A stretch of 64,000 nt of DNA, taken from the NCBI RefSeq assembly GCF_053078305.1, contig NZ_CP166879.1; one strand, 5' to 3'. Position numbers and translations under genes: made by a program. The notes under the pieces were generated by a model. That model searched no databases. It was given only the letters and a program-made list of their open reading frames with translations, and had not been told where the DNA came from. The stretch's first letter is position 1. Each line of letters starts with the position of its first letter. Positions 33,447-63,091 of this stretch are shown one piece after another.

Positions 33447-34721
33447 TTACCCCGCCTTGTTATGGGGCATGGTTGGGGCAAACTCGCTTAGCTGTGTATT
33501 TAACAGCGTTACCTGTGCATTATTATTTTCTGACATCCATTTTCCGTACACCTGAAACACCATTTGCGCATCGGCATGCCCCATCTGGTTTGCTATGAAT
33601 GCAGGATTAGCACCAGCTGTTAGCGACCAGCAGGCATAAGTATGTCTCGACTGATATGATTTTCGGTGGCGGAGTCCTGCTCGTTTTATTGCTGCGTCCC
33701 ACATCTGTCTTATTGAGTCAACAGTAAAATGGTCACCATAATTTTTTACTCTCGCTGACACTTCAGGTTGAAAAACAAAGGTGCATTTTTGTTTTTCTGT
33801 TCTGCCATACTCTCTGAGGTGAACATCAATGATATGCTCTTTGCTCAGTCTCGTTAGTGTCATCTGATTCTGGAGGGCCTCGATTGCTGGCTTAATAAGG
33901 TGAATTACACGATTAGTCCCCGCCTGTGTTTTTGGTACCGTAAAATGGTCTTTTGCTAAATTTCTCCTGATCATCATTGTTCCATTTTTCAGATCTATGT
34001 CCTCCCATCCAAGTGCACACAACTCACCAGGGCGAACGCCAGTATAAACAGAAACACACCACAAATTTTTGGCTTGCTGATTTCTGCACGCATCTATAAG
34101 GCGGATAAATTCCTCCCGCGAAAGAGGATCTGGAATGGTTCTTGATTCCTTTAATGGCGATATCCCCTTAAACGGATTATCTGCCAGGTAGCTGTTATCA
34201 ACACCAAACTGGAACACGGCGTTAAGATTTGTCATGTAATTATTTACGGTAACAGCCGATCTCCCGGGTTGTGTAACAATATAGTTACTTTTGGGGATCT
34301 GGTATCCAGTCAGTAACTCTTTACGAACCTCCAGTAATTTTTCTTTATTAATCGATGAGGCAAGATTTTTTTCACCGATTATGCTCAGGATATTTTTGAT
34401 GACGGCACGGTATGTATTGAGTGAACTTCTGGCAACTTCGGCCTCTTTTAGTGCCAGAAATTTTTCGGCCAGTTCACCTATAGTCAAATTTTGTCTGGCT
34501 TCCCCAAATTTTTCCAGATTGTGGGAGTAGGGGAACTGTTTTGCGTAGTCAAAAATCCCCGTTTTTATTGCGTAACAAACAGAAGCGCGTAGTTCACCAG
34601 CGATGCGTCTGTTTTTTACTGTGTCAGGGACACCGAGGTTTTCCCTGACTCTTACGCCTTTATAAACAAACCAGATGCGTAATGTCCCCCCGTGTTTTTC
34701 TACGCCTGTCGGATATTTCAT
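33447..34721 (-). CDS. int: Phage integrase (tyrosine recombinase)
   Basis: 424-aa ORF with C-terminal catalytic R...H-x-x-R...Y region (RHTYACWSLTAG...HADAQMVFQVYGKW); adjacent to the disrupted ydfJ. Confidence 0.9.
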   Translation of the reverse strand: MKYPTGVEKHGGTLRIWFVYKGVRVRENLGVPDTVKNRRIAGELRASVCYAIKTGIFDYAKQFPYSHNLEKFGEARQNLTIGELAEKFLALKEAEVARSSLNTYRAVIKNILSIIGEKNLASSINKEKLLEVRKELLTGYQIPKSNYIVTQPGRSAVTVNNYMTNLNAVFQFGVDNSYLADNPFKGISPLKESRTIPDPLSREEFIRLIDACRNQQAKNLWCVSVYTGVRPGELCALGWEDIDLKNGTMMIRRNLAKDHFTVPKTQAGTNRVIHLIKPAIEALQNQMTLTRLSKEHIIDVHLREYGRTEKQKCTFVFQPEVSARVKNYGDHFTVDSIRQMWDAAIKRAGLRHRKSYQSRHTYACWSLTAGANPAFIANQMGHADAQMVFQVYGKWMSENNNAQVTLLNTQLSEFAPTMPHNKAG

Positions 34722-35077: not shown

Positions 35078-37597
35078 TTAAAAATCAGCCTGATTCGGGA
35101 ACAGTTTTTGCCAGATAACTGAAACGTATTTTGCCTGGTAACGCGCATCGTGCAGGGCATTATGGCGTTCACCCTCAAATGTGATGACGTTGCGGGCATC
35201 GAAATCCATCACCAGTCCCAGGGCAACAATCGTTCTTACATCACGATCGTTGTAGTGACGCCACGGGCAGGGGATTTCTTGTCGTTTATATGAACGGCTT
35301 AAAATTACGTTGTCGAAGTTGGCTCCATTTCCCCAGACCTGAACAAAAAACTCACCGGAGTTTTCGTCTATAAATTCCCGTAATTGTAAAAGCGCATCAT
35401 CAAGCGGTATTCGATCAGCTAAAATGGCGGCACGGGCTTCGCCAGAGCGTTGAAGCCACCATTCGATGGTGCTTATGTCTACAGTGCCACCACATGTATC
35501 CATATCAATTATTTTGCTGAATTCTGGCCCCAGTTCTCCGGTTTGCGGATCGAAAAAGACTGCGCCTATTGAGGCTATTGGTGCGTCAGGATTTTTGCCC
35601 ATCGTTTCAAGGTCAATCATCAGGTGATCCCACATTCTGCTGGTGGATGTGCTTTCACGATGACCGTTCACCTTAATTAAGGGATTTGCTGTCTCGCCTG
35701 TTTCATTATTGCCATTGGCATGTTGATCGCCTTCGGTGCACTCCTTGTTCGGGTGTCCGGCACTTTCCATTTCCTCCAGATCTTTTTCCCGGGCTTCATC
35801 CTGGCTTTCTTCGTTGAATGTCTCCTGGTATGTTGCGTCGCCCATCACCGCGCCACAGTCAGGACAGTTGCCGCCACCGCTCTGACCGCAGGCGGTGCAG
35901 ACTTTTTCCTCTTCCTGTTGCGCTACTGGTTCGGATTGTTTCGTTTCTGGCTCGTCTTGTAACGCATTTTGGCTGTTTTGTTCTGCTTTCTGGTCGTTCT
36001 GTTCCGTTTCTTGCTGGTTCTGGTTCACAGAATCGCAGGTTTCAATCCCCTTAACCCATTTCGAATCATTCGGGTCGCTAATCCCTTCAACAAACTCACC
36101 ACGGGAAGCGGCAAGCAATTTGTCGGCATCTGGTCGACTGATGTCTGCTGCCTCCATAATTTTATTTACTTCTTCAGCAGTAACTTTTACCTGTGACTTG
36201 TCATCCAGCGGCTGCGGGTCCTGATGATGTTCAACTGTATCCGCTGCCATTGTTTCAGCCGTTGCCTGTTCATCTGCCATTGCGCCAGATGGCTGCGGTT
36301 TTTCTTCATCATCCTGTTTTCCTTCTTTTGTTACACGCTGAGGGATAGGGGCAGAGGAGCGACCGCAGGCAATATCCACGATTTCCGGATCAGGGTTGGC
36401 ATGATCGGTTTCGGTCAGTACTTTGTTCAGATATTCGGTAACACGGTGGGGAGTAGCCTCGATACCAATTGGTGCTTCTTTCACGGACGCAACTACTATC
36501 GCGCGGGAATAATCCAGGTGACCAGGCATGGCGATGAATTTGTCACGAAAAACAGAAAAGGGCGGCTTATTCTCTGAAACGATTTCTTCAATGCGTTTGG
36601 CGTGTGCCGGATGTGGATTGTAAATATCGATGTCCATTGAACGGGCCAGAACGCCAGCGGCAACGTCACGTTCCACTGACGCATCATCGTGGACAAAACC
36701 TTCACCGCGATCGGTAAGAATTCCTCCGCCAGCATTAGCGCCGGACGGGGTGCGATTGATTTCAGATACGCAATTTCCCTTTGCCCACTCTTTTGTCAAC
36801 AGCCCCTGATCAAGGTAGTCAGTCTTCATCCAGGTGGAAATGAACTTGTCGAATTCTGCCGGGCTGATACGGCGTGTTGTTGCGTGAGTGAATGCCTTTT
36901 CCACCGAATGCGCCAGTCTTCCAAGATGATGGTTTGTCAGCTTATCCAGCTCAGGATGCGAACGTACTGCAGTAAGCAGGCTCTGTATGTTTCCATCTTC
37001 CATATCCATTTCGATGCGGATCACGTCCTTGCGTTGTTCTGGTGTGGCGTGATGTTTGTATTTCTCGTCGAACTCCTGACCAAAGAAGTAGAGGTGCAGG
37101 AAGCGATGGGTAAGACTCAGGGTGGAGACGGGGATTTCACATTCAGGGCAGTCATCGTTGCTGTCCGGGGATTCGCTTTTATCTGCGTTCTCTGTCTGAG
37201 AGTCACTTTGTTCATCGCAGTCACGGCTGACACCTGTAACAGCTTCGCCGCTGGTATTGTCAGTGCTGGCAGGTTTGTCCTGAGCTGAAGGGGAAGGAGC
37301 TATAAATATCATTGTGATACCATCTTCCCCGCCTTTTTCGTAACGGTTGCAGAATTCAGTATCAAACACGCCTTCTGGAGGAAGGTCATTCACAACGGGT
37401 AAATGGACGCGAACAGGTTTTTTAAAGTCGTCCTCGTCATAATCATTATCATCCATTGCGGTAATGCAGCGGGAGATGGCAACAGATAATTTTTTTGCTG
37501 TAGTCCAGTAAAAACCACCTTTAATCCCAAGGCGTTTTCTGACCTTGTCATTTTTTGCTTCGCAATATAGTGCAAAAGTTTCTTTATCAGTGCTCAT
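35078..37597 (-). CDS. Prophage exonuclease, 839 aa, with C-terminal DEDDh-type 3'-5' exonuclease domain (often annotated exodeoxyribonuclease VIII)
   Basis: C-terminal approx. 190 aa carry the exonuclease motifs (MIDLETMG ... NGANFD ... HNALHDARYQA); central region strongly acidic and low-complexity with a CxxC...CxxC pair. Confidence 0.6.
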   Translation of the reverse strand: MSTDKETFALYCEAKNDKVRKRLGIKGGFYWTTAKKLSVAISRCITAMDDNDYDEDDFKKPVRVHLPVVNDLPPEGVFDTEFCNRYEKGGEDGITMIFIAPSPSAQDKPASTDNTSGEAVTGVSRDCDEQSDSQTENADKSESPDSNDDCPECEIPVSTLSLTHRFLHLYFFGQEFDEKYKHHATPEQRKDVIRIEMDMEDGNIQSLLTAVRSHPELDKLTNHHLGRLAHSVEKAFTHATTRRISPAEFDKFISTWMKTDYLDQGLLTKEWAKGNCVSEINRTPSGANAGGGILTDRGEGFVHDDASVERDVAAGVLARSMDIDIYNPHPAHAKRIEEIVSENKPPFSVFRDKFIAMPGHLDYSRAIVVASVKEAPIGIEATPHRVTEYLNKVLTETDHANPDPEIVDIACGRSSAPIPQRVTKEGKQDDEEKPQPSGAMADEQATAETMAADTVEHHQDPQPLDDKSQVKVTAEEVNKIMEAADISRPDADKLLAASRGEFVEGISDPNDSKWVKGIETCDSVNQNQQETEQNDQKAEQNSQNALQDEPETKQSEPVAQQEEEKVCTACGQSGGGNCPDCGAVMGDATYQETFNEESQDEAREKDLEEMESAGHPNKECTEGDQHANGNNETGETANPLIKVNGHRESTSTSRMWDHLMIDLETMGKNPDAPIASIGAVFFDPQTGELGPEFSKIIDMDTCGGTVDISTIEWWLQRSGEARAAILADRIPLDDALLQLREFIDENSGEFFVQVWGNGANFDNVILSRSYKRQEIPCPWRHYNDRDVRTIVALGLVMDFDARNVITFEGERHNALHDARYQAKYVSVIWQKLFPNQADF

Positions 37598-39771: not shown

Positions 39772-40179
39772 TTATTGATGTTTGTTACGTTTGCGAGCTT
39801 CTAGTAGCTCGGTGAATAGGCGATTAAAATTCTCAACGCGGGCACGGAGTTCGCTGATCTGTGCTTGCTGCTCTGATTTTGGAAGTGCGCGATACAATCG
39901 CAACATCTCCAACTCATCTTCCGATAAGTCTAAGGCGCTGTTGAGTGCAACTGGTGGATCTGGTGTTTTATCCTCGTCACCAAACAGTATCCAAGTTGGT
40001 GAACATTGCAATACCTCAGCTAGGCGATGCAAATTTTGCCCGCGCGGGGCTGTATGGTCGCTTTCCCATAGTGAAATTGATGAGCCAGATACGCCAGCAG
40101 CTTTGCTTAAATCGTTTTGACTTAAACCAACCTGTTTGCGTCTTTCTCTAATTCGTTGACCTAAAGTTTTCTCGTTCAT
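39772..40179 (-). CDS. dicA: DicA-like HTH (XRE family) prophage repressor
   Basis: 135-aa ORF with N-terminal HTH (LSQNDLSKAAGVSGSSISLWE) and the DicA-like C-terminal segment VLQCSPTWILFGDEDK; divergent from the Cro-like gene. Confidence 0.8.
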   Translation of the reverse strand: MNEKTLGQRIRERRKQVGLSQNDLSKAAGVSGSSISLWESDHTAPRGQNLHRLAEVLQCSPTWILFGDEDKTPDPPVALNSALDLSEDELEMLRLYRALPKSEQQAQISELRARVENFNRLFTELLEARKRNKHQ

Positions 40180-40256
40180 ATTTAGATATCTTAATAACCC
40201 TTGACTTGAGATTCCTTGAGTGATTACTATTGAGAAAACTCAAGCCTGGAGGGGTG
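40180..40256. promoter_or_regulatory. Immunity-region operator with divergent promoters
   Basis: Repeated half-sites ACTTGAG...TTGAGT...TTGAG...CTCAAG between the divergent dicA-like and dicC-like genes. Confidence 0.5.
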
Positions 40257-40484
40257 ATGTTTAAATCAGACGTAATTAATTTTTATGGGACGAAAGCCAA
40301 AGTAGCGAAAGCTGCTGGTGTTGATCCATCTGCTGTTTCTCAATGGGGGGAACTGGTCCCTGAAGGTCGCGCGATGCGCCTGCAAGAGGCATCCGGCGGG
40401 GAGCTTCAGTATGACCCCAAAGTTTATGACGAATATCGTAAGACGAAGCGGGCGGGGCGGGTGAACAATGAAAATCACTCCTGA
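40257..40484 (+). CDS. dicC: DicC-like Cro-type regulator
   Basis: Translation MFKSDVINFYGTKAKVAKAAGVDPSAVSQWGELVPEGRAMRLQEASGGELQYDP resembles DicC; start set to the internal ATG. Confidence 0.7.
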   Translation: MFKSDVINFYGTKAKVAKAAGVDPSAVSQWGELVPEGRAMRLQEASGGELQYDPKVYDEYRKTKRAGRVNNENHS

Positions 40485-40989
40485 ACAGGTTTGCGAGGCT
40501 CTGGATGCCTGGGTATGCAGACCAGGAATGACACAGGAGCAGGCGACGATATTAATCACCGAAGCATTCTGGGATCTGAAAGAGCGCCCGAACATCGATG
40601 TTCAGCGTGTCACGTTTGATGATGGCGCGGTTGATCAACGGGCGCTTGGCGTTAACCGGGTGAAGATATTCGAACGCTGGAAGGCTATCGACACCAGGGA
40701 TAAGCGTGAAAAATTCACGGCGCTGATTCCGGCAATTATGGAGGCTATCCGGATTAGTGATTTCAGGTTGTACCGCGAAATTACTGACGGAAAAAGCATT
40801 ACGTACATGATTGCCGGGTTAAACAAAGAATATGGCGATGTGGTGGAGTCCGGGCTGCTTTTTGCAGATCCAGCTGTTGTGGAACGTGAGACAGACGAGC
40901 TTATAGAAAAAGCAATCGCTTTCAAGCGTGCCTATCGTCACCAGTACCAACAAAAAGCCGGATGGAATTATGAGCCTTCTTTTTGCTGA
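40468..40989 (+). CDS. YdaT-like prophage protein
   Basis: 173-aa ORF MKITPEQVCEAL... overlapping the dicC-like 3' end; resembles Rac YdaT in N-terminus and the ...REKFTALIPAIMEAI... segment. Confidence 0.45.
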   Translation: MKITPEQVCEALDAWVCRPGMTQEQATILITEAFWDLKERPNIDVQRVTFDDGAVDQRALGVNRVKIFERWKAIDTRDKREKFTALIPAIMEAIRISDFRLYREITDGKSITYMIAGLNKEYGDVVESGLLFADPAVVERETDELIEKAIAFKRAYRHQYQQKAGWNYEPSFC

Positions 40990-41935
40990 ACGCCCGCTGG
41001 TTATAAACACACAGCTGGCGATGAAGATTGGTTTAAACGAAGCCATTGTGTTGCAGCAACTGCATTACTGGTTAAGGGATACCAGTTCCGGCATGGAATG
41101 TGATGGCGTTCGCTGGATTTACAACACAACGGAACAATGGCTGGAACAGTTTCCGTTCTGGTCAGAGTCAACGTTAAAGCGTGCGTTTGCAAGTCTGAAA
41201 GCGCTGGGGCTTTTGCGTAGCGAAAAGCTCAATAAATCGAAGCGTGATATGACTAATTTTTACACAATTAACTACGATAGCGCGCTTTTAGATGATGGCA
41301 AAGTGAACGAATCCATCGGGGCAAAATGCGCCACTCCATCAGGTCAAAATGACACGATGGAAGAGGTCAAAATGAAACGTTCCATTGGTTCAAAACGGCC
41401 CAATGTCATCAGGTCAAAATGGCCCGATGATCCTACAGAGAATACAACAGAGAATACAACAGAGAATAAAAAACTCTCTTGTCCGGACGCTTCGCAACCG
41501 GACGAGTTGACGGCTGAACAGGCGTTTTTAACCCGCCATCCTGATGCAGTTGTGTTCAGCGTGAAAAAACGCCAGTGGGGAACCCGGGAGGATTTGACAT
41601 GTGCGCAGTGGATCTGGGGGCGGGTTGTAAACCTGTACGAACAGGCTGCCAGTGACGATGGTGAGATCACGCGACCGAAAGAGCCCAACTGGACGGCGTG
41701 GGCCAATGACGTGCGCACAATGCGGATGCTGGATGGAAGAAGTCACAGACAAATTTGCGAAATGTTCAGTCGGGCACAACGGGATCCGTTCTGGATAAAA
41801 AACATCAAGAGCCCGGAAAAACTCCGTGAGAAATGGGATGAACTGGTTATTCGACTGTGGCGTGGTCCCGCGCAGCGTTGCGTGAATCATATTTCTGAAC
41901 CGGATACCGAAATTCCGCCGGGTTTCAGGGGGTAG
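40970..41935 (+). CDS. Phage replication initiation protein (O-like replisome organiser)
   Basis: Translation MSLLFAERPLVINTQLAMKIGLNEAIVLQQLHYW...; internal repeat-encoded linker; followed by a DnaC-like loader. Confidence 0.6.
   Translation: MSLLFAERPLVINTQLAMKIGLNEAIVLQQLHYWLRDTSSGMECDGVRWIYNTTEQWLEQFPFWSESTLKRAFASLKALGLLRSEKLNKSKRDMTNFYTINYDSALLDDGKVNESIGAKCATPSGQNDTMEEVKMKRSIGSKRPNVIRSKWPDDPTENTTENTTENKKLSCPDASQPDELTAEQAFLTRHPDAVVFSVKKRQWGTREDLTCAQWIWGRVVNLYEQAASDDGEITRPKEPNWTAWANDVRTMRMLDGRSHRQICEMFSRAQRDPFWIKNIKSPEKLREKWDELVIRLWRGPAQRCVNHISEPDTEIPPGFRG
41318..41475 (+). repeat. Iteron-like direct repeats plus 12-bp tandem repeats (candidate ori) inside the replication gene
   Basis: GGTCAAAATG at 41342, 41365 and 41412, variants GGGCAAAATG and GGTTCAAAACGG, followed by ACAGAGAATACA in about 2.7 tandem copies (41436-41468). 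Confidence 0.55.
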
Positions 41936-41941
41936 CGCACC

Positions 41942-42682
41942 ATGAAAAACATTACGTCAGGTGGTGTTCTGGCAAGAGTCAGCAGATTTGTGCCGCAGGA
42001 TGCAATCCCTCCGTACCGTACGGTGGCGGAGTGGCGGGAATGGCAGCTTGCTGAAGGGCGTAAGCGAAGCGAGGAGGTTAATCGTCTGAATCATCAGACG
42101 CGGGTTGAAAAAATCATTAACCGCTCCGGTATCCAGCTGCTTCACCGGAAGTGTACGTTCGGTAACTACCGGGTGCAGAACGATGGTCAGCGCCATGCCC
42201 TGAGTCAGGCGAAATCCATTGTGGCAGAGCTGGAAGGCGGCTGTACGAATTTTGTTTTCAGTGGCAGGCCTGGCACAGGAAAAAACCACCTGGCGGCGGC
42301 TATTGGCAACCACCTTCTGGCGAAAGGTCGCAGTGTGATTGTGATAACAGTGGCGGATGTGATGCTGGCGTTACATGGCAGCTACGACAACAAAAACTCG
42401 GGCGAAAAATTTTTGCAGGGATTGTGTGGCGTTGACCTGCTGGTACTGGATGAAATTGGCATGCAACGGGATACGCGTAATGAGCAGGTCACGCTTAATC
42501 AGATTGTTGACCGCAGAACGGCATCGTTACTCAGTGTGGGGATGCTGACAAATCTTAATCATGCAGCGATGAATACACTTCTCGGCGAGCGGGTAATGGA
42601 CCGCATGTCCATGAACGGTGGTCGCTGGGTGACTTTTAACTGGGAGAGCTGGCGTCCGAACGTCAGCCAGCACAGGAACTGA
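41942..42682 (+). CDS. DnaC-like helicase loader (IstB-type AAA+ ATPase)
   Basis: Walker [16 protein letters not shown] and Walker [10 protein letters not shown]. Confidence 0.8.
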
Positions 42683-42711
42683 GAAGTAATTTTTATCCGG
42701 AGGAAATTTTA

Positions 42712-43473
42712 ATGGAAACCGTATTGCATGCACTGAAAGCGATGGGTAAAGCCAATTCTGTTGAACTGGCGGCGCGGCTTGATATCAGCCGTGAAGAAGT
42801 TCTCAACGAACTGTGGGAACTCAAAAAAAATGGCGTTGTTGATAAAACGGGTCACACCTGGTTTCTGGCTGGTGAAGGTGAATCCGGGGTAACCGAAGAG
42901 CAGCCAGCACAGTCTGAAGTACCGGATGTGCTGACCGGGGAGGTCGAACAAAAAGTTACCGCGGACATGATGATTGAGTTTATCTGTCAGGATGGGGCTA
43001 AAACGTGTGAGGAACTGGCGGATAAGTTCGGTGTTAGCATTCGCAAGGTTGCTTCCACGTTGGCGGTCGTAACAGCAACGGGGCGCCTGGCACGCGTAAA
43101 TCAGAACGGTAAATTTCGTTACTGCATACCGGGCGCTGATTTACCGGCAGAGCCGGAAGCTGCATCCGTAGCGGAAACCGATGGTAAAGCCTTTCCTCAG
43201 CCAGCAGGTGTTGCGTTACCAGTCCGGGAAGCTGCAACACAGGAAGAAATAAAAACGGAAAGTGTGGCGGTCACAGTGCAGTCACAGCCGTCGTTCACCA
43301 GAAAGCATCCGGATGGTCTGATTTTACCATCGCTGCATGTGGCTAACCGCGAGCTGCGCCGGGCAAAAGGTCAGGTTCAGAAGTGGGAGCGAGTCTGCGC
43401 CGCGCTGCGGGAGCTGAACAAGTGCCGGGATATTCTCCGGGATATTACCGCCACCAGAGAACACCAGCGGTGA
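42712..43473 (+). CDS. Hypothetical phage protein with N-terminal winged-helix-like segment
   Basis: 253-aa ORF; no family recognised. Confidence 0.5.
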
Positions 43474-51757: not shown

Positions 51758-51833
51758 GGCCCTTTAGCTCAGTGGTGAGAGCGAGCGACTCATAATCGCC
51801 AGGTCGCTGGTTCAAATCCAGCAAGGGCCACCA
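51758..51833 (+). tRNA. tRNA with CAU anticodon, ileX-like (tRNA-Ile2 lysidine type)
   Basis: Cloverleaf GGCCCTTTAGCTCAGTGGTGAGAGC...ACTCATAATCG...GGTTCAAATCC...AAGGGCCACCA; close to E. coli ileX. Confidence 0.75.
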
Positions 51834-51842
51834 TATCACATA

Positions 51843-51919
51843 CCGCCATTAGCTCATCGGGACAGAGCGTCAGCCTTCGAAGCTGGTTGCGCGGGGTTCG
51901 AGTCCTCGATGGCGGTCCA
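51843..51919 (+). tRNA. tRNA-Arg (anticodon TCG)
   Basis: Acceptor stem CCGCCAT/ATGGCGG, anticodon loop CTTCGAA, T-loop GGTTCGAGTCC, 3' CCA. Confidence 0.7.
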
Positions 51920-51932
51920 TTATCGGTATTCA

Positions 51933-52009
51933 GCGTTGTTAGCTCAGCCGGACAGAGCAATTGCCTTCTAAGCAATCGGTCACTGGTTCGAATCCAGTAC
52001 AACGCGCCA
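51933..52009 (+). tRNA. tRNA-Arg (anticodon TCT)
   Basis: Acceptor stem GCGTTGT/ACAACGC, anticodon loop CTTCTAA, T-loop GGTTCGAATCC, 3' CCA. Confidence 0.75.
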
Positions 52010-60681: not shown

Positions 60682-61191
60682 GTGGCTACGCAGACTGAAG
60701 TTGCCAGGCATTTAAGTCTGACCGATCGCCAGCTTCGCAGATTGCAGAAATTGCCGGGTGCCCCGATATCGAATAAGCGAGGGCAACTGGATCTGGATGC
60801 CTGGCGCGATTTTTACATATCGTATCTGAGAAGAAGTAAAAACGATGTGCCTGATGGCGATAGCGAAGACGACTATGAGGAGAAATTGCTTATTGCCAGA
60901 TGGGAACTGACAGCAGAACAGGCTGTTACACAGCAGTTAAAAAATGAGGTGTCAAAAGGAAAACTTATTGACACCGGGTTCTGTATTTTTGCCCTCAGCA
61001 AGCTGGCAATGGCGTTATCCAGTACGCTTGATTCCATCCCTTTATCCATGCAGCGACAGTTTCCTGATTTAACACCGCGCCATCTTGACCATCTGAAAAC
61101 CCTTATTGCGAAGGGGGCAAATCAGTGTGCGCGGGCGGGGGATAAATTACCGGATTTACTCGATGAATATATCAGAGCAACAACTGAATAA
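60682..61191 (+). CDS. Terminase small subunit (lambda Nu1-like)
   Basis: GTG start with GAGGTGAGGA SD; C-terminal half aligns with lambda Nu1. Confidence 0.8.
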   Translation: MATQTEVARHLSLTDRQLRRLQKLPGAPISNKRGQLDLDAWRDFYISYLRRSKNDVPDGDSEDDYEEKLLIARWELTAEQAVTQQLKNEVSKGKLIDTGFCIFALSKLAMALSSTLDSIPLSMQRQFPDLTPRHLDHLKTLIAKGANQCARAGDKLPDLLDEYIRATTE

Positions 61192-63091
61192 TATGATGAG
61201 CGCTGTCACAACAGCATTACAGCCCCTGATAAGGGCATTGCCGGTGACGCCAGTTGAATGGGCTGATCAAAATTATTATCTGCCTAAAGAATCTTCATAT
61301 GGTGAGGGAGAATGGAAAACGCTGCCGTTCCAGATCGCCATCATGAACAGCATGGGGAATGATCAGATCCGGACTGTTAATCTGATTAAATCTGCCCGTG
61401 TTGGCTATACAAAGATGTTGCTGGGAGTCGCCGGGTATTTTATTGAGCATAAATCCCGAAACAGTCTGCTTTTTCAGCCCACGGATTCTGCCGCTGAAGA
61501 TTTTATGAAGTCTCACGTGGAGGCGACGATTCGCGATGTTCCCTGCCTGAAAAAACTTTCTCCCTGGCTGGGACGTAAACATCGTGATAATACCATCACG
61601 CTGAAACGCTTTTCATCGGGTGTGGGTTTCTGGTGCCTGGGTGGTGCGGCAGCAAAAAACTACCGTGAAAAATCCGTGGATGTGGTCTGCTATGACGAGC
61701 TTTCCTCGTTCGAGCCGGATGTTGAAAAAGAGGGCTCGCCAACCCTGCTGGGGGATAAGCGTATTGAGGGCTCGGTATGGCCAAAATCCATTCGCGGCTC
61801 GACGCCAAAAATAAAAGGTTCCTGCCAGATCGAAAAAGCGGCCAACGAGTCGGCGCATTTTATGCGTTTTTATGTGCCCTGCCCACACTGCGGGGAGGAG
61901 CAGTATCTGAAATTTGGCGATGAGTCCACGCCTTTTGGCCTTAAATGGGAGAAGGACAGCCCCGAAAGCGTTTTCTACCTCTGTGAACATCATGGCTGCG
62001 TGATCCATCAGTCTGAGCTTGACCAGAGCAACGGGCGGTGGATCTGTGAAAACACGGGGATGTGGACCCGTGATGGTCTGACGTTTTTCAGCGCTGCGGG
62101 TAATGAAATTCCACCGCCGCGCTCCATCACGTTCCACATCTGGACGGCGTACAGTCCGTTCACCACCTGGGTACAGATAGTCTATGACTGGCTGGATGCA
62201 CTGAAAGATCCCAACGGCGTGAAAACCTTTGTGAACACCACGCTGGGCGAGACCTGGGAAGAGGCCGTGGGCGAAAAACTCGATCACCAGGTGCTGATGG
62301 ATAAGGTTGTGCGTTACACAGCGGCGGTGCCTGCCCGGGTGGTTTATCTGACGGCGGGTATTGACTCGCAGCGAAACCGTTTTGAGATGTATGTCTGGGG
62401 ATGGGCTCCGGGAGAGGAAGCCTTTCTGGTGGATAAAATCATCATTATGGGGCGTCCCGATGAGGAAGAGACGCTGTTACGTGTGGATGCGGCGATCAAC
62501 AAAAAATACCGCCATGCAGACGGAACCGAAATGACCATTTCCCGTGTCTGCTGGGACACAGGGGGGATCGATGGCGAAATTGTCTATCAGAGGTCAAAAA
62601 AACACGGTGTTTTCCGGGTGCTGCCGGTAAAAGGTGCATCTGTTTATGGCAAGCCGGTGATCACCATGCCAAAAACCCGCAATCAGCGGGGCGTGTATCT
62701 GTGCGAAGTGGGGACGGACACCGCAAAAGAAATTCTCTATGCCCGTATGAAAGCCGATCCCACGCCTGCGGATGAAGCCACGTCGTATGCCATCCGTTTT
62801 CCTGATGATCCGGAGATTTTTTCGCAGACAGAGGCGCAGCAACTGGTGGCGGAAGAGCTTGTGGAGAAGTGGGAAAAAGGAAAGATGCGTCTGCTGTGGG
62901 ATAACAAAAAGCGGCGTAACGAAGCGCTGGACTGCCTGGTGTATGCCTACGCGGCATTACGTGTGTCCGTGCAACGCTGGCAGCTTGATCTGGCTGTACT
63001 GGCAAAATCCCGGGAAGAAGAGACGACCCGGCCAACCCTTAAAGAACTGGCAGCGAAGCTGTCCGGAGGAGTGAATGGTTACAGTCGCTGA
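61163..63091 (+). CDS. Terminase large subunit (lambda gpA-like)
   Basis: Translation MNISEQQLNNMMSAV...; long stretches match lambda gpA (AVEWADQNYYLPKES, KSARVGYTKMLLGV, EGSVWPKSIRGSTPK, CPHCGEEQYLKFGD, KKRRNEALDC). Confidence 0.9.
   Translation: MNISEQQLNNMMSAVTTALQPLIRALPVTPVEWADQNYYLPKESSYGEGEWKTLPFQIAIMNSMGNDQIRTVNLIKSARVGYTKMLLGVAGYFIEHKSRNSLLFQPTDSAAEDFMKSHVEATIRDVPCLKKLSPWLGRKHRDNTITLKRFSSGVGFWCLGGAAAKNYREKSVDVVCYDELSSFEPDVEKEGSPTLLGDKRIEGSVWPKSIRGSTPKIKGSCQIEKAANESAHFMRFYVPCPHCGEEQYLKFGDESTPFGLKWEKDSPESVFYLCEHHGCVIHQSELDQSNGRWICENTGMWTRDGLTFFSAAGNEIPPPRSITFHIWTAYSPFTTWVQIVYDWLDALKDPNGVKTFVNTTLGETWEEAVGEKLDHQVLMDKVVRYTAAVPARVVYLTAGIDSQRNRFEMYVWGWAPGEEAFLVDKIIIMGRPDEEETLLRVDAAINKKYRHADGTEMTISRVCWDTGGIDGEIVYQRSKKHGVFRVLPVKGASVYGKPVITMPKTRNQRGVYLCEVGTDTAKEILYARMKADPTPADEATSYAIRFPDDPEIFSQTEAQQLVAEELVEKWEKGKMRLLWDNKKRRNEALDCLVYAYAALRVSVQRWQLDLAVLAKSREEETTRPTLKELAAKLSGGVNGYSR

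What the first reader, a model, noticed from the sequence alone, without database searches (positions are those of the whole stretch)
41318..41475. Iteron array inside the replication initiator gene, a likely prophage origin
Four to five copies of a GGTCAAAATG-type motif are followed by ACAGAGAATACA repeated about 2.7 times, all within the coding sequence. The repeats encode the linker between the N- and C-terminal parts of the O-like protein. This mirrors phage lambda, where ori iterons lie inside gene O.
Basis: partly seen in the sequence, partly recalled or inferred. Interest (0 to 1): 0.45.

Follow-up and report, generated by a model that had tools for sequence, protein, structure and literature searches.

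The report
Prophage replication origin inside initiator gene
The repeats are real and are almost certainly the replication origin of a lambda-like prophage, sitting inside the gene of the protein that binds them. This layout is well known from phage lambda, but here it uses an unnamed DNA-binding domain found in phages of many bacterial phyla.

Summary
Observation confirmed and refined. There are six 23-nt dyad-symmetric units (41291-41429, core GGTCAAAATGACC), then ACAGAGAATACA x3 (41435-70) in the gene's second least stable segment, then a short inverted repeat. All lie inside an O-like gene (40970-41935), followed by a DnaC-like loader gene.

The repeats act at the DNA level:
- The 23-nt period runs through all three reading frames.
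- Synonymous resampling never reproduces it (0/5000).
- Between relatives, the iteron zone has higher nucleotide identity but lower amino-acid identity than the folded N-terminal domain.

The strongest evidence is co-variation. In 29 lineages the base 4 nt from each iteron centre tracks protein residue 67, at the start of the predicted recognition helix: S->T, D->G, K/R->A, N->C. It fits 28/29 lineages with at least 8 independent switches.

The C-terminal half is homologous to lambda O's C-terminal half. The N-terminal winged helix best resembles RepA_N plasmid initiators, whose iterons also lie inside their own gene.

The same cassette (domain + 22-23-nt iterons + CAGAGA/CAGATA 12-mers) recurs across Proteobacteria, Firmicutes and Bacteroidota. 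The domain has no Pfam or NCBIfam model and the gene is usually annotated "hypothetical protein".

It is a new member of a known kind, of moderate interest.

The parts
40201..40230 (+). pR-like promoter match (TTGACT-18-TACTAT) between the divergent cI-like and cro-like genes. It would drive the rightward early operon through the origin.
   Evidence: consensus scan only, and the match count is not above the shuffles. Gene order.
40970..41935 (+). O-like replication initiator gene (321 aa). Its ATG overlaps the end of the upstream YdaT/cII-like gene.
   Evidence: PHROG 391 at 7.7e-91. No Pfam or NCBIfam family. Called 'hypothetical protein' in most E. coli genomes and in NCBI/UniRef.
40970..41290 (+). 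Coding region of the N-terminal winged-helix domain (aa 1-107), the predicted iteron-binding part. Residue S67 (codon 41168-41170) begins the predicted recognition helix.
   Evidence: AlphaFold2 pLDDT 87.4, helices 54-60 and 66-78 plus a beta wing. Best PDB fold matches are RepA_N initiator NTDs 4pql, 5kbj and 4pt7. Residue 67 co-varies with an iteron base.
41231..41271 (.). Left low-stability A+T-rich segment flanking the iterons. It also encodes the conserved wing of the domain.
   Evidence: Nearest-neighbour dG -46.1 against a regional mean of -57.0, sd 4.1.
41291..41313 (.). Iteron 1: GATGATGGCAAAGTGAACGAATC
   Evidence: The homologous unit in mEp460_4F5 is GAAGAGGTCAAAGTGAACGAATC.
41314..41336 (.). 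Iteron 2: CATCGGGGCAAAATGCGCCACTC
41337..41359 (.). Iteron 3: CATCAGGTCAAAATGACACGATG (best palindrome)
41360..41382 (.). Iteron 4: GAAGAGGTCAAAATGAAACGTTC
41383..41405 (.). Iteron 5: CATTGGTTCAAAACGGCCCAATG
41407..41429 (.). Iteron 6: CATCAGGTCAAAATGGCCCGATG
41435..41470 (.). Three 12-nt repeats ACAGAGAATACA / ACAGAGAATACA / ACAGAGAATAAA (protein TENTTENTTENK). The top strand is A-rich. This is the proposed unwinding element.
   Evidence: TRF score 68. GC 0.30 and AT skew 0.57. The window 41433-41473 has dG -46.2, tied for least stable in the gene. The motif is conserved across phyla.
41481..41503 (.). Inverted repeat GTCCGG-N11-CCGGAC just right of the A-rich segment. It marks the mosaic joint between the N-terminal/origin module and the C-terminal module.
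   Evidence: Read from the sequence. Identical in mEp460 phages and in SfIV, which has a different N-terminal domain. BLAST hits of the two modules overlap only at query 497-537.
41567..41851 (+). Coding region of the C-terminal domain homologous to lambda O's C-terminal domain, the presumed helicase-loader docking part.
   Evidence: BLASTP 6e-25, 35% identity over aa 140-294.
41864..41932 (+). C-terminal tail ...HISEPDTEIPPGFRG, the same as the tail of E. coli DnaT.
   Evidence: phmmer against PDB: 6aep, 2ru8, 9zbt. NCBIfam DnaT model positions 158-179.
41942..42682 (+). DnaC-like AAA+ helicase-loader gene (246 aa).
   Evidence: IstB_IS21 1.5e-15. PHROG 50 at 3.6e-78. PRK12377 4.5e-141 and DnaC 1e-89.

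Best explanation
This is the theta-type replication origin of a lambdoid prophage, embedded in the gene of its own initiator.

Proposed sequence of events (each step marked as shown or inferred):
1. After induction, rightward early transcription makes the O-like protein. [Inferred from gene order.]
2. Dimers of its N-terminal winged-helix domain bind the six dyad-symmetric 23-bp iterons (41291-41429). Residue S67, at the start of the recognition helix, reads the T:A pair 4 bp either side of each iteron centre. [Binding inferred from protein-DNA co-variation, which is shown.]
3. The phased array, with an A-tract at each iteron centre, forms an O-some-like complex. This complex opens the adjacent weakly paired A-rich 12-mer segment (41433-41473). 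[By analogy with lambda; the low stability is shown.]
4. The lambda-O-like C-terminal domain and its DnaT-like tail bring in host DnaB through the phage DnaC-like loader encoded next door. [By analogy.]

The peptide encoded by the repeats is a tolerated linker. Because the site and its binding domain are one piece of DNA, they move together as a module. The joint at the A-rich segment and inverted repeat lets that module recombine with different C-terminal, helicase-recruiting modules. [The mosaicism is shown.]
For: (a) The repeat acts on DNA, not protein. Iteron centres fall at gene nt 333, 356, 379, 402, 425 and 449, covering all three codon phases. Synonymous resampling reached the observed periodicity 0/5000 times.

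(b) Constraint is on the nucleotides. For window vs mEp460_4F5, the iteron zone has nt identity 0.83 and aa identity 0.63; the N-terminal domain has 0.73 and 0.76. Identical codons at conserved residues are 0.89-0.92 in the iteron and 12-mer zones against 0.51 in the domain. The Klebsiella phage gives the same pattern. Fisher p = 2.6e-5 and 5e-7.

(c) The array keeps its position and 22-23-nt period in nearly all relatives inspected; two (Pseudomonas AF, Vibrio SSP002) show little or none. This holds from E. coli to Staphylococcus, Bacillus, Listeria, Flavobacterium and Bacteroides phages. Meanwhile both half-sites change together: GGTCA..TGACC, GGGCA..TGCCC, GGACA..TGTCC, ACCCCA..TGGGGT.

(d) Protein-DNA co-variation. 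In 29 lineages (clusters at 85% identity) residue 67 predicts the +/-4 base in 28. On a tree built with residue 67 masked, the base changes at least 8 times. No tip shuffle out of 100000 matched this agreement. The close pair L115 (N, C) and L116 (D, G) is a natural specificity swap.

(e) The domain is a confident winged helix whose best solved look-alikes are RepA_N initiator NTDs, including a Rep-iteron DNA complex. Those initiators bind Rep boxes in the middle of their own gene (PMC5703833).

(f) The C-terminal half is homologous to lambda O's, a DnaC-like loader gene is adjacent, and the layout matches the annotated ori-lambda (PMC7466680).

(g) The two least stable duplex segments of the gene flank the array.

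(h) Plaque-forming relatives keep the array.
Against: No experiment was done: neither binding, unwinding nor origin activity has been shown for this family, and I found no paper on it.

The fold match to RepA_N is modest (TM about 0.55, Foldseek E 2e-3), and there is no sequence-level match to Pfam RepA_N or Phage_rep_O.

Individual iterons are imperfect palindromes; in the window, units 1, 5 and 6 break the +/-4 symmetry.

The dyad symmetry would equally allow hairpins in mRNA or single-stranded DNA (RNA fold z = -2.87).

Several relatives with the same origin module lack a DnaC-like gene, so the helicase-loading step is uncertain.

Whether this particular prophage is still inducible is unknown; the window ends within it.
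Confidence: 0.85

Rival explanations
1. The repeats are initiator-binding sites, but their main role is regulatory rather than origin firing. Examples would be autoregulation, titration or handcuffing that limits replication, or exclusion of related phages. The true origin would then lie elsewhere.
For: Iterons in plasmids do both jobs, and the co-variation shows binding, not firing. The phage-lambda literature describes inhibition by cloned ori copies (papers PMC3349717 and PMC4488673, listed).
Against: The array is always followed at a fixed distance (18 nt in most enteric relatives, 15 in two) by a weakly paired A-rich segment, as in ori-lambda. No other iteron cluster occurs in the window. 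Phages with this module show no other candidate origin in the replication region. These roles can also coexist with origin function.
Confidence: 0.07
2. The dyad-symmetric units act as hairpins in the mRNA or in single-stranded DNA, for example to control translation or stability of the initiator message. Under this reading they are not duplex binding sites.
For: The RNA fold of 41285-41510 is more stable than shuffles (z = -2.87, 3 of 200 shuffles as good). Compensatory changes in the two half-sites are also what base pairing predicts.
Against: The half-site base co-varies with a specific amino acid of the recognition helix (28/29 lineages), which RNA pairing does not explain. The stems would be only 4-6 bp around an AAA loop. 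The invariant CA-N3-TG core and the strict 22-23-nt phasing across phyla are not needed for hairpins. No Rfam family matches.
Confidence: 0.04
3. The repeats are merely a repetitive, low-complexity protein linker created by slippage, with no function in cis.
For: The 12-mers are in frame (TENT x3). The encoded linker is poorly conserved. In RepA_N plasmids the equivalent peptide is dispensable (PMC5703833).
Against: The 23-nt period is not a multiple of 3 and cycles through all frames. Synonymous sites are the most conserved. Codon choice in the 12-mers is nearly fixed: Thr ACA/ACT 77 vs ACC/ACG 3, against 125 vs 172 elsewhere (p 8e-21), even in genes of 58-60% GC. In Bacillus phage TP21-L the CAGAGA(A/C)TAC motif recurs at 11- and 10-nt spacing, out of frame.
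Confidence: 0.03

Closest known systems
ori-lambda inside gene O of phage lambda and Stx phages (O/P system)
   Same: The origin lies in the middle of the initiator gene. It has 4-6 dyad-symmetric iterons with an A-tract centre (lambda TCCCTCAAAACGAGGGA) at 20-24-nt spacing. An A-rich A+T segment and then an inverted repeat follow. The encoded peptide is the inter-domain linker. The C-terminal domain is truly homologous (BLASTP 6e-25). The position in the early right operon after cro and a cII-like gene is the same.
   Different: The N-terminal DNA-binding domain is not lambda O's: there is no Phage_rep_O match and BLAST aligns only the C-terminal half. The iteron sequence differs. The partner is a DnaC paralogue, not lambda P. 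There are six iterons and a tandem 12-mer in place of lambda's non-repetitive A+T stretch. A DnaT-like tail is present.
RepA_N theta plasmids of Firmicutes (pSK41, pTZ2162)
   Same: The design is tripartite: a roughly 120-aa N-terminal winged helix binds Rep boxes located centrally in its own gene, the ori-encoded peptide is a dispensable linker, and the C-terminal domain is host-specific (PMC5703833). These NTDs are the best PDB fold matches to the N-terminal domain here (4pql, 5kbj, 4pt7).
   Different: There is no detectable sequence similarity to Pfam RepA_N, and TM is only about 0.55. The context is phage rather than plasmid. The C-terminal domain is lambda-O-like, whereas the pSK41 one binds DnaG.
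SPP1 G38P/oriL and staphylococcal phage 80alpha ORF20 (replisome organisers with an embedded origin)
   Same: The origin is embedded in the initiator gene. In 80alpha, ORF20 plus a DnaC-like ORF21 are necessary and sufficient for autonomous replication, and ORF20 cannot be complemented in trans (PMC5499656). That is the same two-gene module as here.
   Different: The paper relates 80alpha ORF20 to SPP1 G38P. I did not compare either protein with this N-terminal domain, so the family relationship is untested.
Rac prophage ydaS-ydaT-ydaU-ydaV region of E. coli K-12
   Same: The gene order is the same: cro-like, YdaT-like, initiator-like, DnaC-like. The DnaC-like proteins are nearly the same length (246 vs 248 aa).
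   Different: YdaU is a DUF1376 protein, a different initiator family, so its origin sequences are not comparable.

Membership tests
Iteron-type origin embedded in its initiator gene (functional class: lambda, SPP1 oriL, RepA_N plasmids) | Three or more regularly spaced direct repeats inside the initiator's coding sequence | tested here: met
   Six units at 23-24 nt within 40970-41935.
Iteron-type origin embedded in its initiator gene (functional class: lambda, SPP1 oriL, RepA_N plasmids) | The repeats are bound by the cognate initiator | not testable with these tools
   Indirect support only: residue 67 co-varies with the +/-4 base in 28 of 29 lineages, with at least 8 independent switches.
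Iteron-type origin embedded in its initiator gene (functional class: lambda, SPP1 oriL, RepA_N plasmids) | An adjacent easily melted A+T-rich segment | tested here: met
   41433-41473 has dG -46.2 against a mean of -57.0, sd 4.1; GC 0.30.
Iteron-type origin embedded in its initiator gene (functional class: lambda, SPP1 oriL, RepA_N plasmids) | Supports autonomous replication when the initiator is supplied | not testable with these tools
   Needs cloning and transformation.
Lambda O protein family / ori-lambda | N-terminal iteron-binding domain homologous to lambda O (Pfam Phage_rep_O) | tested here: not met
   No Pfam hit at E <= 0.01. BLASTP against lambda O aligns only aa 140-294.
Lambda O protein family / ori-lambda | C-terminal domain homologous to lambda O | tested here: met
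   BLASTP 6e-25, 35% identity over 155 columns.
Lambda O protein family / ori-lambda | Lambda-P-type helicase loader encoded downstream | tested here: not met
   The downstream gene is a DnaC/IstB-type AAA+ protein.
RepA_N initiators | Sequence match to Pfam RepA_N (PF06970) | tested here: not met
   None of the 12 family members matched, even at E <= 10.
RepA_N initiators | Winged-helix N-terminal fold like the pSK41/pTZ2162 RepA NTD | tested here: inconclusive
   These are the top Foldseek PDB hits, but with TM 0.55 and E 2e-3; many generic winged-helix regulators score nearly as well.
DnaC-type helicase loader (neighbouring gene) | Full-length match to DnaC/PRK12377 AAA+ models | tested here: met
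   PRK12377 at 4.5e-141, above its cutoff. The DnaC equivalog scores 300 bits, below its 357 cutoff, so this is a paralogue rather than DnaC itself.

The most novel reading that the evidence does not exclude
The locus would be one member of a very large initiator superfamily that has no Pfam or NCBIfam model. The superfamily has about 15,000 clusters at 50% identity, spread over Proteobacteria, Firmicutes and Bacteroidota. Its members carry a conserved three-part origin cassette inside their own gene:
- a winged-helix domain;
- iterons at a fixed 22-23-bp phase, whose specificity is set largely by one residue (S/A/P->T, D->G, K/R->A, N->C at the +/-4 base);
- a sequence-conserved 12-nt-period element, (T)ACAGAGA(W)TAC or ACAGATAT.

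That last element is more than generic A+T-rich DNA. It may be a specific site held in single-stranded form by the initiator, comparable to DnaA-trios, or a conserved helicase or primase entry site.
Probability: 0.4. Interest if true: 0.65.

Novelty: new member of a known kind. Interest (0 to 1): 0.45.

Why it matters
For this window, it assigns a function to a gene that NCBI and UniRef call "hypothetical protein" in thousands of enterobacterial genomes. It also marks the prophage's origin to within about 250 bp.

More broadly, the one-residue/one-base rule predicts which prophage and phage replicons share origin specificity, and so which could cross-activate, compete or be incompatible. It also suggests a simple specificity-swap experiment.

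The cross-phylum conservation of the 12-mer next to the iterons is unexplained. It could reveal how this class of initiators opens DNA or positions the helicase.

Tried and rejected
- Pfam and NCBIfam scans of the initiator and of 12 N-terminal domains found no family. There were only weak generic winged-helix hits; the best E-value for any member was 2.4e-4.
- Sequence search of PDB with the N-terminal profile found nothing meaningful.
- Rfam found no match in 40000-43000.
- I rejected Rac YdaU as a relative: it is DUF1376.
- The cI/cro operator region has unrelated palindromes (CTTGAG..CTCAAG), so the iterons are not repressor operators.
- Single-protein scans of viral contigs with the Hafnia and Stenotrophomonas domains returned mostly near-identical relatives. 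The alignment-based scan returned only relatives 76-100% identical to the E. coli protein.
- Literature searches for the motif strings, and for descriptions of this family's origin, found nothing. This is absence in an open-access subset only; the Weigel & Seitz 2006 review on phage replication modules was not readable here.
- The Glu GAG 46:0 codon count is partly circular, because the zone was defined by the hexamer, so I rely on the Thr codon test instead.
- Automatic centring of iterons was unreliable for the Flavobacterium, Bacteroides and Lactobacillus phages. I read those by eye.
Full report
**1. What is in the sequence**

Reading 40600-42400 and the repeat finders confirm the finding, with corrections. 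The 23-nt unit occurs six times, not four to five:
- 41291-41313
- 41314-41336
- 41337-41359
- 41360-41382
- 41383-41405
- 41407-41429

Spacing is 23, 23, 23, 23, 24 nt. The reported start, 41318, cuts unit 2 and misses unit 1.

Each unit is an imperfect palindrome around an A-tract, e.g. CATCAGGTCAAAATGACACGATG. The invariant skeleton is CA-N3-TG.

Then follow:
- ACAGAGAATACA x2.8 at 41435-41468 (TRF score 68), with a degenerate third copy ending at 41470;
- an A-rich stretch;
- an inverted repeat GTCCGG-N11-CCGGAC at 41481-41503.

The periodicity is the strongest in the 64-kb window: lag-23 self-identity is 0.53-0.56, z = 6.7. It exceeds all 2000 dinucleotide shuffles, whose maximum was 0.443.

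**2. Context**

The array lies in a 321-aa ORF, 40970-41935. It matches PHROG 391 "replication initiation O-like" at 7.7e-91, but has no Pfam or NCBIfam family.

- Upstream are a cI-like repressor gene (39772-40179, minus strand), a P22-Cro-like gene and a YdaT/cII-like gene.
- Downstream is a DnaC paralogue, 41942-42682.
- A pR-like promoter match sits at 40201-40230.
- The surrounding element is a lambdoid prophage. It has an integrase (33447-34721), a RecE-like exonuclease, Rha/Ash, three tRNAs, an endolysin and a large terminase (61106-63091), and it runs off the window end.
- The 3-kb replication region is 99.7% identical to one complete E. coli genome, and 60 genomes hold a match covering at least 80% of it. 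PGAP mostly calls the initiator "hypothetical protein". NCBI and UniRef do the same for hundreds of homologues in Escherichia, Citrobacter and Salmonella.

**3. The repeat acts on DNA, not protein**

- Because 23 is not a multiple of 3, iteron centres (gene nt 333, 356, 379, 402, 425, 449) fall in all three codon phases. The same DNA core is read as GKV, GAKC, GQND, EVKM, GSKR and RSKW.
- Re-drawing synonymous codons while keeping the protein never reached the observed periodicity (0/5000).
- Between the window and mEp460_4F5, the iteron zone has higher nucleotide identity than the folded N-terminal domain (0.83 vs 0.73) but lower amino-acid identity (0.63 vs 0.76).
- Identical codons at conserved residues are 0.89-0.92 in the iteron and 12-mer zones against 0.51 in the domain. 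A Klebsiella phage gives the same picture. Fisher p = 2.6e-5 and 5e-7.

This is the signature of frame-independent constraint on nucleotides overlying an unconstrained linker peptide.

**4. Relatives**

The gene is mosaic:
- One group of phages (Klebsiella ST147-VIM1phi7.2 and others) shares only query nt 58-537, which is the N-terminal domain plus repeats.
- Another group (SfII, SfIV and others) shares only nt 497-875, the C-terminal domain.

The joint is the A-rich segment and inverted repeat. SfIV has a different N-terminal domain with its own 15-nt iterons and no 12-mer array, but the same inverted repeat and C-terminal domain. So the 12-mers travel with the N-terminal module.

tblastn with the N-terminal 111 aa finds 155 phage records across phyla. 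Examples are Staphylococcus phage 96 (49% identity), Bacillus TP21-L (46%), and Listeria, Vibrio, Flavobacterium, Bacteroides and Lactobacillus phages.

In nearly all relatives inspected, 3-6 repeats at a 22-23-nt period follow the domain at gene nt about 310-450. Two exceptions were Pseudomonas phage AF and Vibrio SSP002, which show little or no array. The repeats are followed by a 12-nt-period A-rich motif:
- in enterics, TACAGAGAWTACWACAGAGA;
- in Bacteroidota, Vibrio and Lactobacillus phages, ATACCAGATATAAACACAGATAT.

The plaque-forming phages mEp460_ev081, HannyBb and PhiR42_1 carry essentially the window's array.

**5. Protein-DNA co-variation, the key evidence**

The half-sites change together between lineages:
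- GGTCA..TGACC (window, Klebsiella, Providencia)
- GGGCA..TGCCC (Pantoea, Erwinia, Pseudomonas)
- GGACA..TGTCC (Hafnia)
- ACCCCA..TGGGGT (L115)
- ACCGCA..TGCGGT (L116)
- GGATCA..TGATCC (L117)

The base 4 nt from the centre tracks the residue aligned with window residue 67. In 29 lineages clustered at 85% identity:

| Residue 67 | Base at +/-4 | Lineages |
|---|---|---|
| S | T | 11/11 |
| D | G | 9/9 |
| K or R | A | 4/4 |
| A or P | T | 2/2 |
| N | C or T | 1 each |

That is 28 of 29 agreements. On a neighbour-joining tree built with residue 67 masked, the base changes at least 8 times. None of 100000 tip shuffles reached this agreement. Two Stenotrophomonas-type members fell below the score cut-off but also pair N with C.

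The AlphaFold2 model of the domain is confident (pLDDT 87.4). It is a winged helix-turn-helix in which residue 67 is the second residue of the recognition helix, 66-78. That residue 67 contacts the base directly is my inference; it was not modelled.

The best solved look-alikes are N-terminal domains of RepA_N plasmid initiators, including a Rep-iteron complex (4pql, 5kbj, 4pt7; TM about 0.55, E 2e-3). Those proteins bind Rep boxes located centrally in their own gene, and the ori-encoded peptide is a dispensable linker (PMC5703833).

**6. Comparison with lambda**

The C-terminal half is homologous to lambda O's C-terminal half: BLASTP 6e-25, 35% identity. The N-terminal half is not.

Lambda's annotated iterons begin 348 nt into O, at 20, 24, 23-nt spacing. 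Each is a palindrome around CAAAAC. They are followed by an A-rich A+T segment and an inverted repeat (PMC7466680). Here the array begins 322 nt into the gene.

The two least stable 41-nt duplex windows of the gene flank the array: 41231-41271 (dG -46.1) and 41433-41473 (dG -46.2), against a regional mean of -57.0, sd 4.1.

The partner differs: a DnaC paralogue rather than lambda P.

The last 23 residues (..SEPDTEIPPGFRG) match the C-terminal tail of E. coli DnaT. The role of that tail is not defined in the recent preprimosome structure paper (PMC13377028).

Several relatives with the same origin module have no loader gene at all. They may use the host DnaC-DnaB complex directly.

**7. The 12-mer element**

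- About 39 of the 68 unique genes carry the same N-terminal family.
- The other ~29 carry N-terminal domains that are only distantly similar. Of these, 23 were inspected and lag-23 repeats ranked among their top periodicities (identity 0.52-0.90), immediately upstream of the 12-mers. Their C-terminal domains vary.
- A profile-profile comparison unites the two N-terminal groups: hhalign probability 97.7%, E 2e-12.

An exhaustive profile search finds 15,305 clusters at 50% identity with E <= 1e-3. Of the 150 best, 54 carry a strict TExTTE or PDINTD motif at aa 126-158, against 0 in shuffles.

The 12-mer looks DNA-constrained:
- Thr codons there are ACA/ACT 77 vs ACC/ACG 3, against 125 vs 172 elsewhere (p 8e-21).
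- This holds even in genes of 58-60% G+C.
- In Bacillus phage TP21-L the CAGAGA(A/C)TAC motif recurs at 11- and 10-nt spacing, so one copy is read in another frame.
- The first CAGAGA lies 18 nt from the last iteron centre in most enteric relatives, and 15 nt in two.

What recognises this element is unknown. The simplest reading is a DNA-unwinding element, and a sequence-specific role is possible. I found no paper containing these motif strings.

**8. Rivals**

- A purely regulatory or titration role for the iterons cannot be excluded, and it can coexist with origin function.
- RNA or single-stranded-DNA hairpins fit the dyad symmetry (fold z -2.87). They do not fit the amino-acid co-variation, and no Rfam family matches.
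- A pure protein-linker repeat is contradicted by frame rotation and synonymous-site conservation.
- The iterons are unrelated to the palindromes of the immunity region.

**9. Verdict**

This is a lambda-style origin embedded in an O-like initiator gene, next to a DnaC-like loader gene.

The principle is textbook (lambda, SPP1, RepA_N plasmids; 80alpha in PMC5499656), so the locus is a new member of a known kind.

Three things go beyond the expected:
- the initiator's DNA-binding domain has no Pfam or NCBIfam model (PHROGs does label the protein "replication initiation O-like") yet is very widespread;
- a one-residue/one-base specificity rule holds across many lineages;
- the 12-mer is conserved across phyla.

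Origin activity, binding and unwinding remain to be shown experimentally.

Noticed in passing
window 41864-41932 (aa 299-321 of the O-like protein): The C-terminal tail HISEPDTEIPPGFRG is nearly identical to the last residues of E. coli DnaT (VSEPDSQIPPGFRG). The same tail ends many phage initiators that have different N- and C-terminal domains (SfIV, the Klebsiella, Pantoea and Hafnia phages, L155, L197). It is probably a shared docking peptide; its partner is unknown.
   Followed up: partly
L001 (mEp460_ev081), L002, L003, L004, L005: Functional phages with the same origin module have no DnaC-like or P-like loader gene after the initiator ('initiator-solo' modules). The loader next to the window's gene is therefore optional for this origin type.
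   Followed up: partly
proteins P0001-P0027: Many of the best database matches to the N-terminal domain are 400-880-aa proteins with two tandem copies of the domain. I did not examine their DNA for two iteron arrays.
   Followed up: no
L006 (lambda) about 1160-1175; window 41435-41470: Lambda's ori region contains a single TCAGAGAAT, to the right of its A+T-rich segment. BLASTP aligns the peptide it encodes (SSENSGESS) with the window's TENTTENTTE. It could be a remnant of the same element or a coincidence.
   Followed up: no
window about 35914-36060, inside the RecE-like exonuclease gene (35078-37597, minus strand): This is the second strongest periodic signal in the window: lag 21, self-identity 0.556. 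A 21-nt period preserves the reading frame, so it is likely an acidic, low-complexity protein repeat.
   Followed up: no
window 41231-41271 and 41301-41274 (minus strand): A second low-stability A+T-rich segment lies left of the iterons, next to a leftward promoter-like match (TTGCCA-16-TATCGT). The count of such matches is no higher than in shuffles.
   Followed up: no
window 51758-52009: A cluster of three tRNA genes (Met-CAT, Arg-TCG, Arg-TCT) lies in the late region of the prophage, upstream of the lysis genes.
   Followed up: no
proteins P0154, P0157, P0160: Some genomes carry 448-aa ORFs that combine a YdaT domain (PF06254) with the full O-like protein. In the window the O-like ATG (40970) overlaps the end of the YdaT-like gene (stop at 40989), so these may be fusions, frameshifts or mis-calls.
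   Followed up: no
L243 (E. coli K-12 Rac prophage, ydaS-ydaV): Rac has the same gene order (cro-like, YdaT, initiator, DnaC-like), but its initiator YdaU belongs to another family (DUF1376). This illustrates module replacement at a fixed position.
   Followed up: partly
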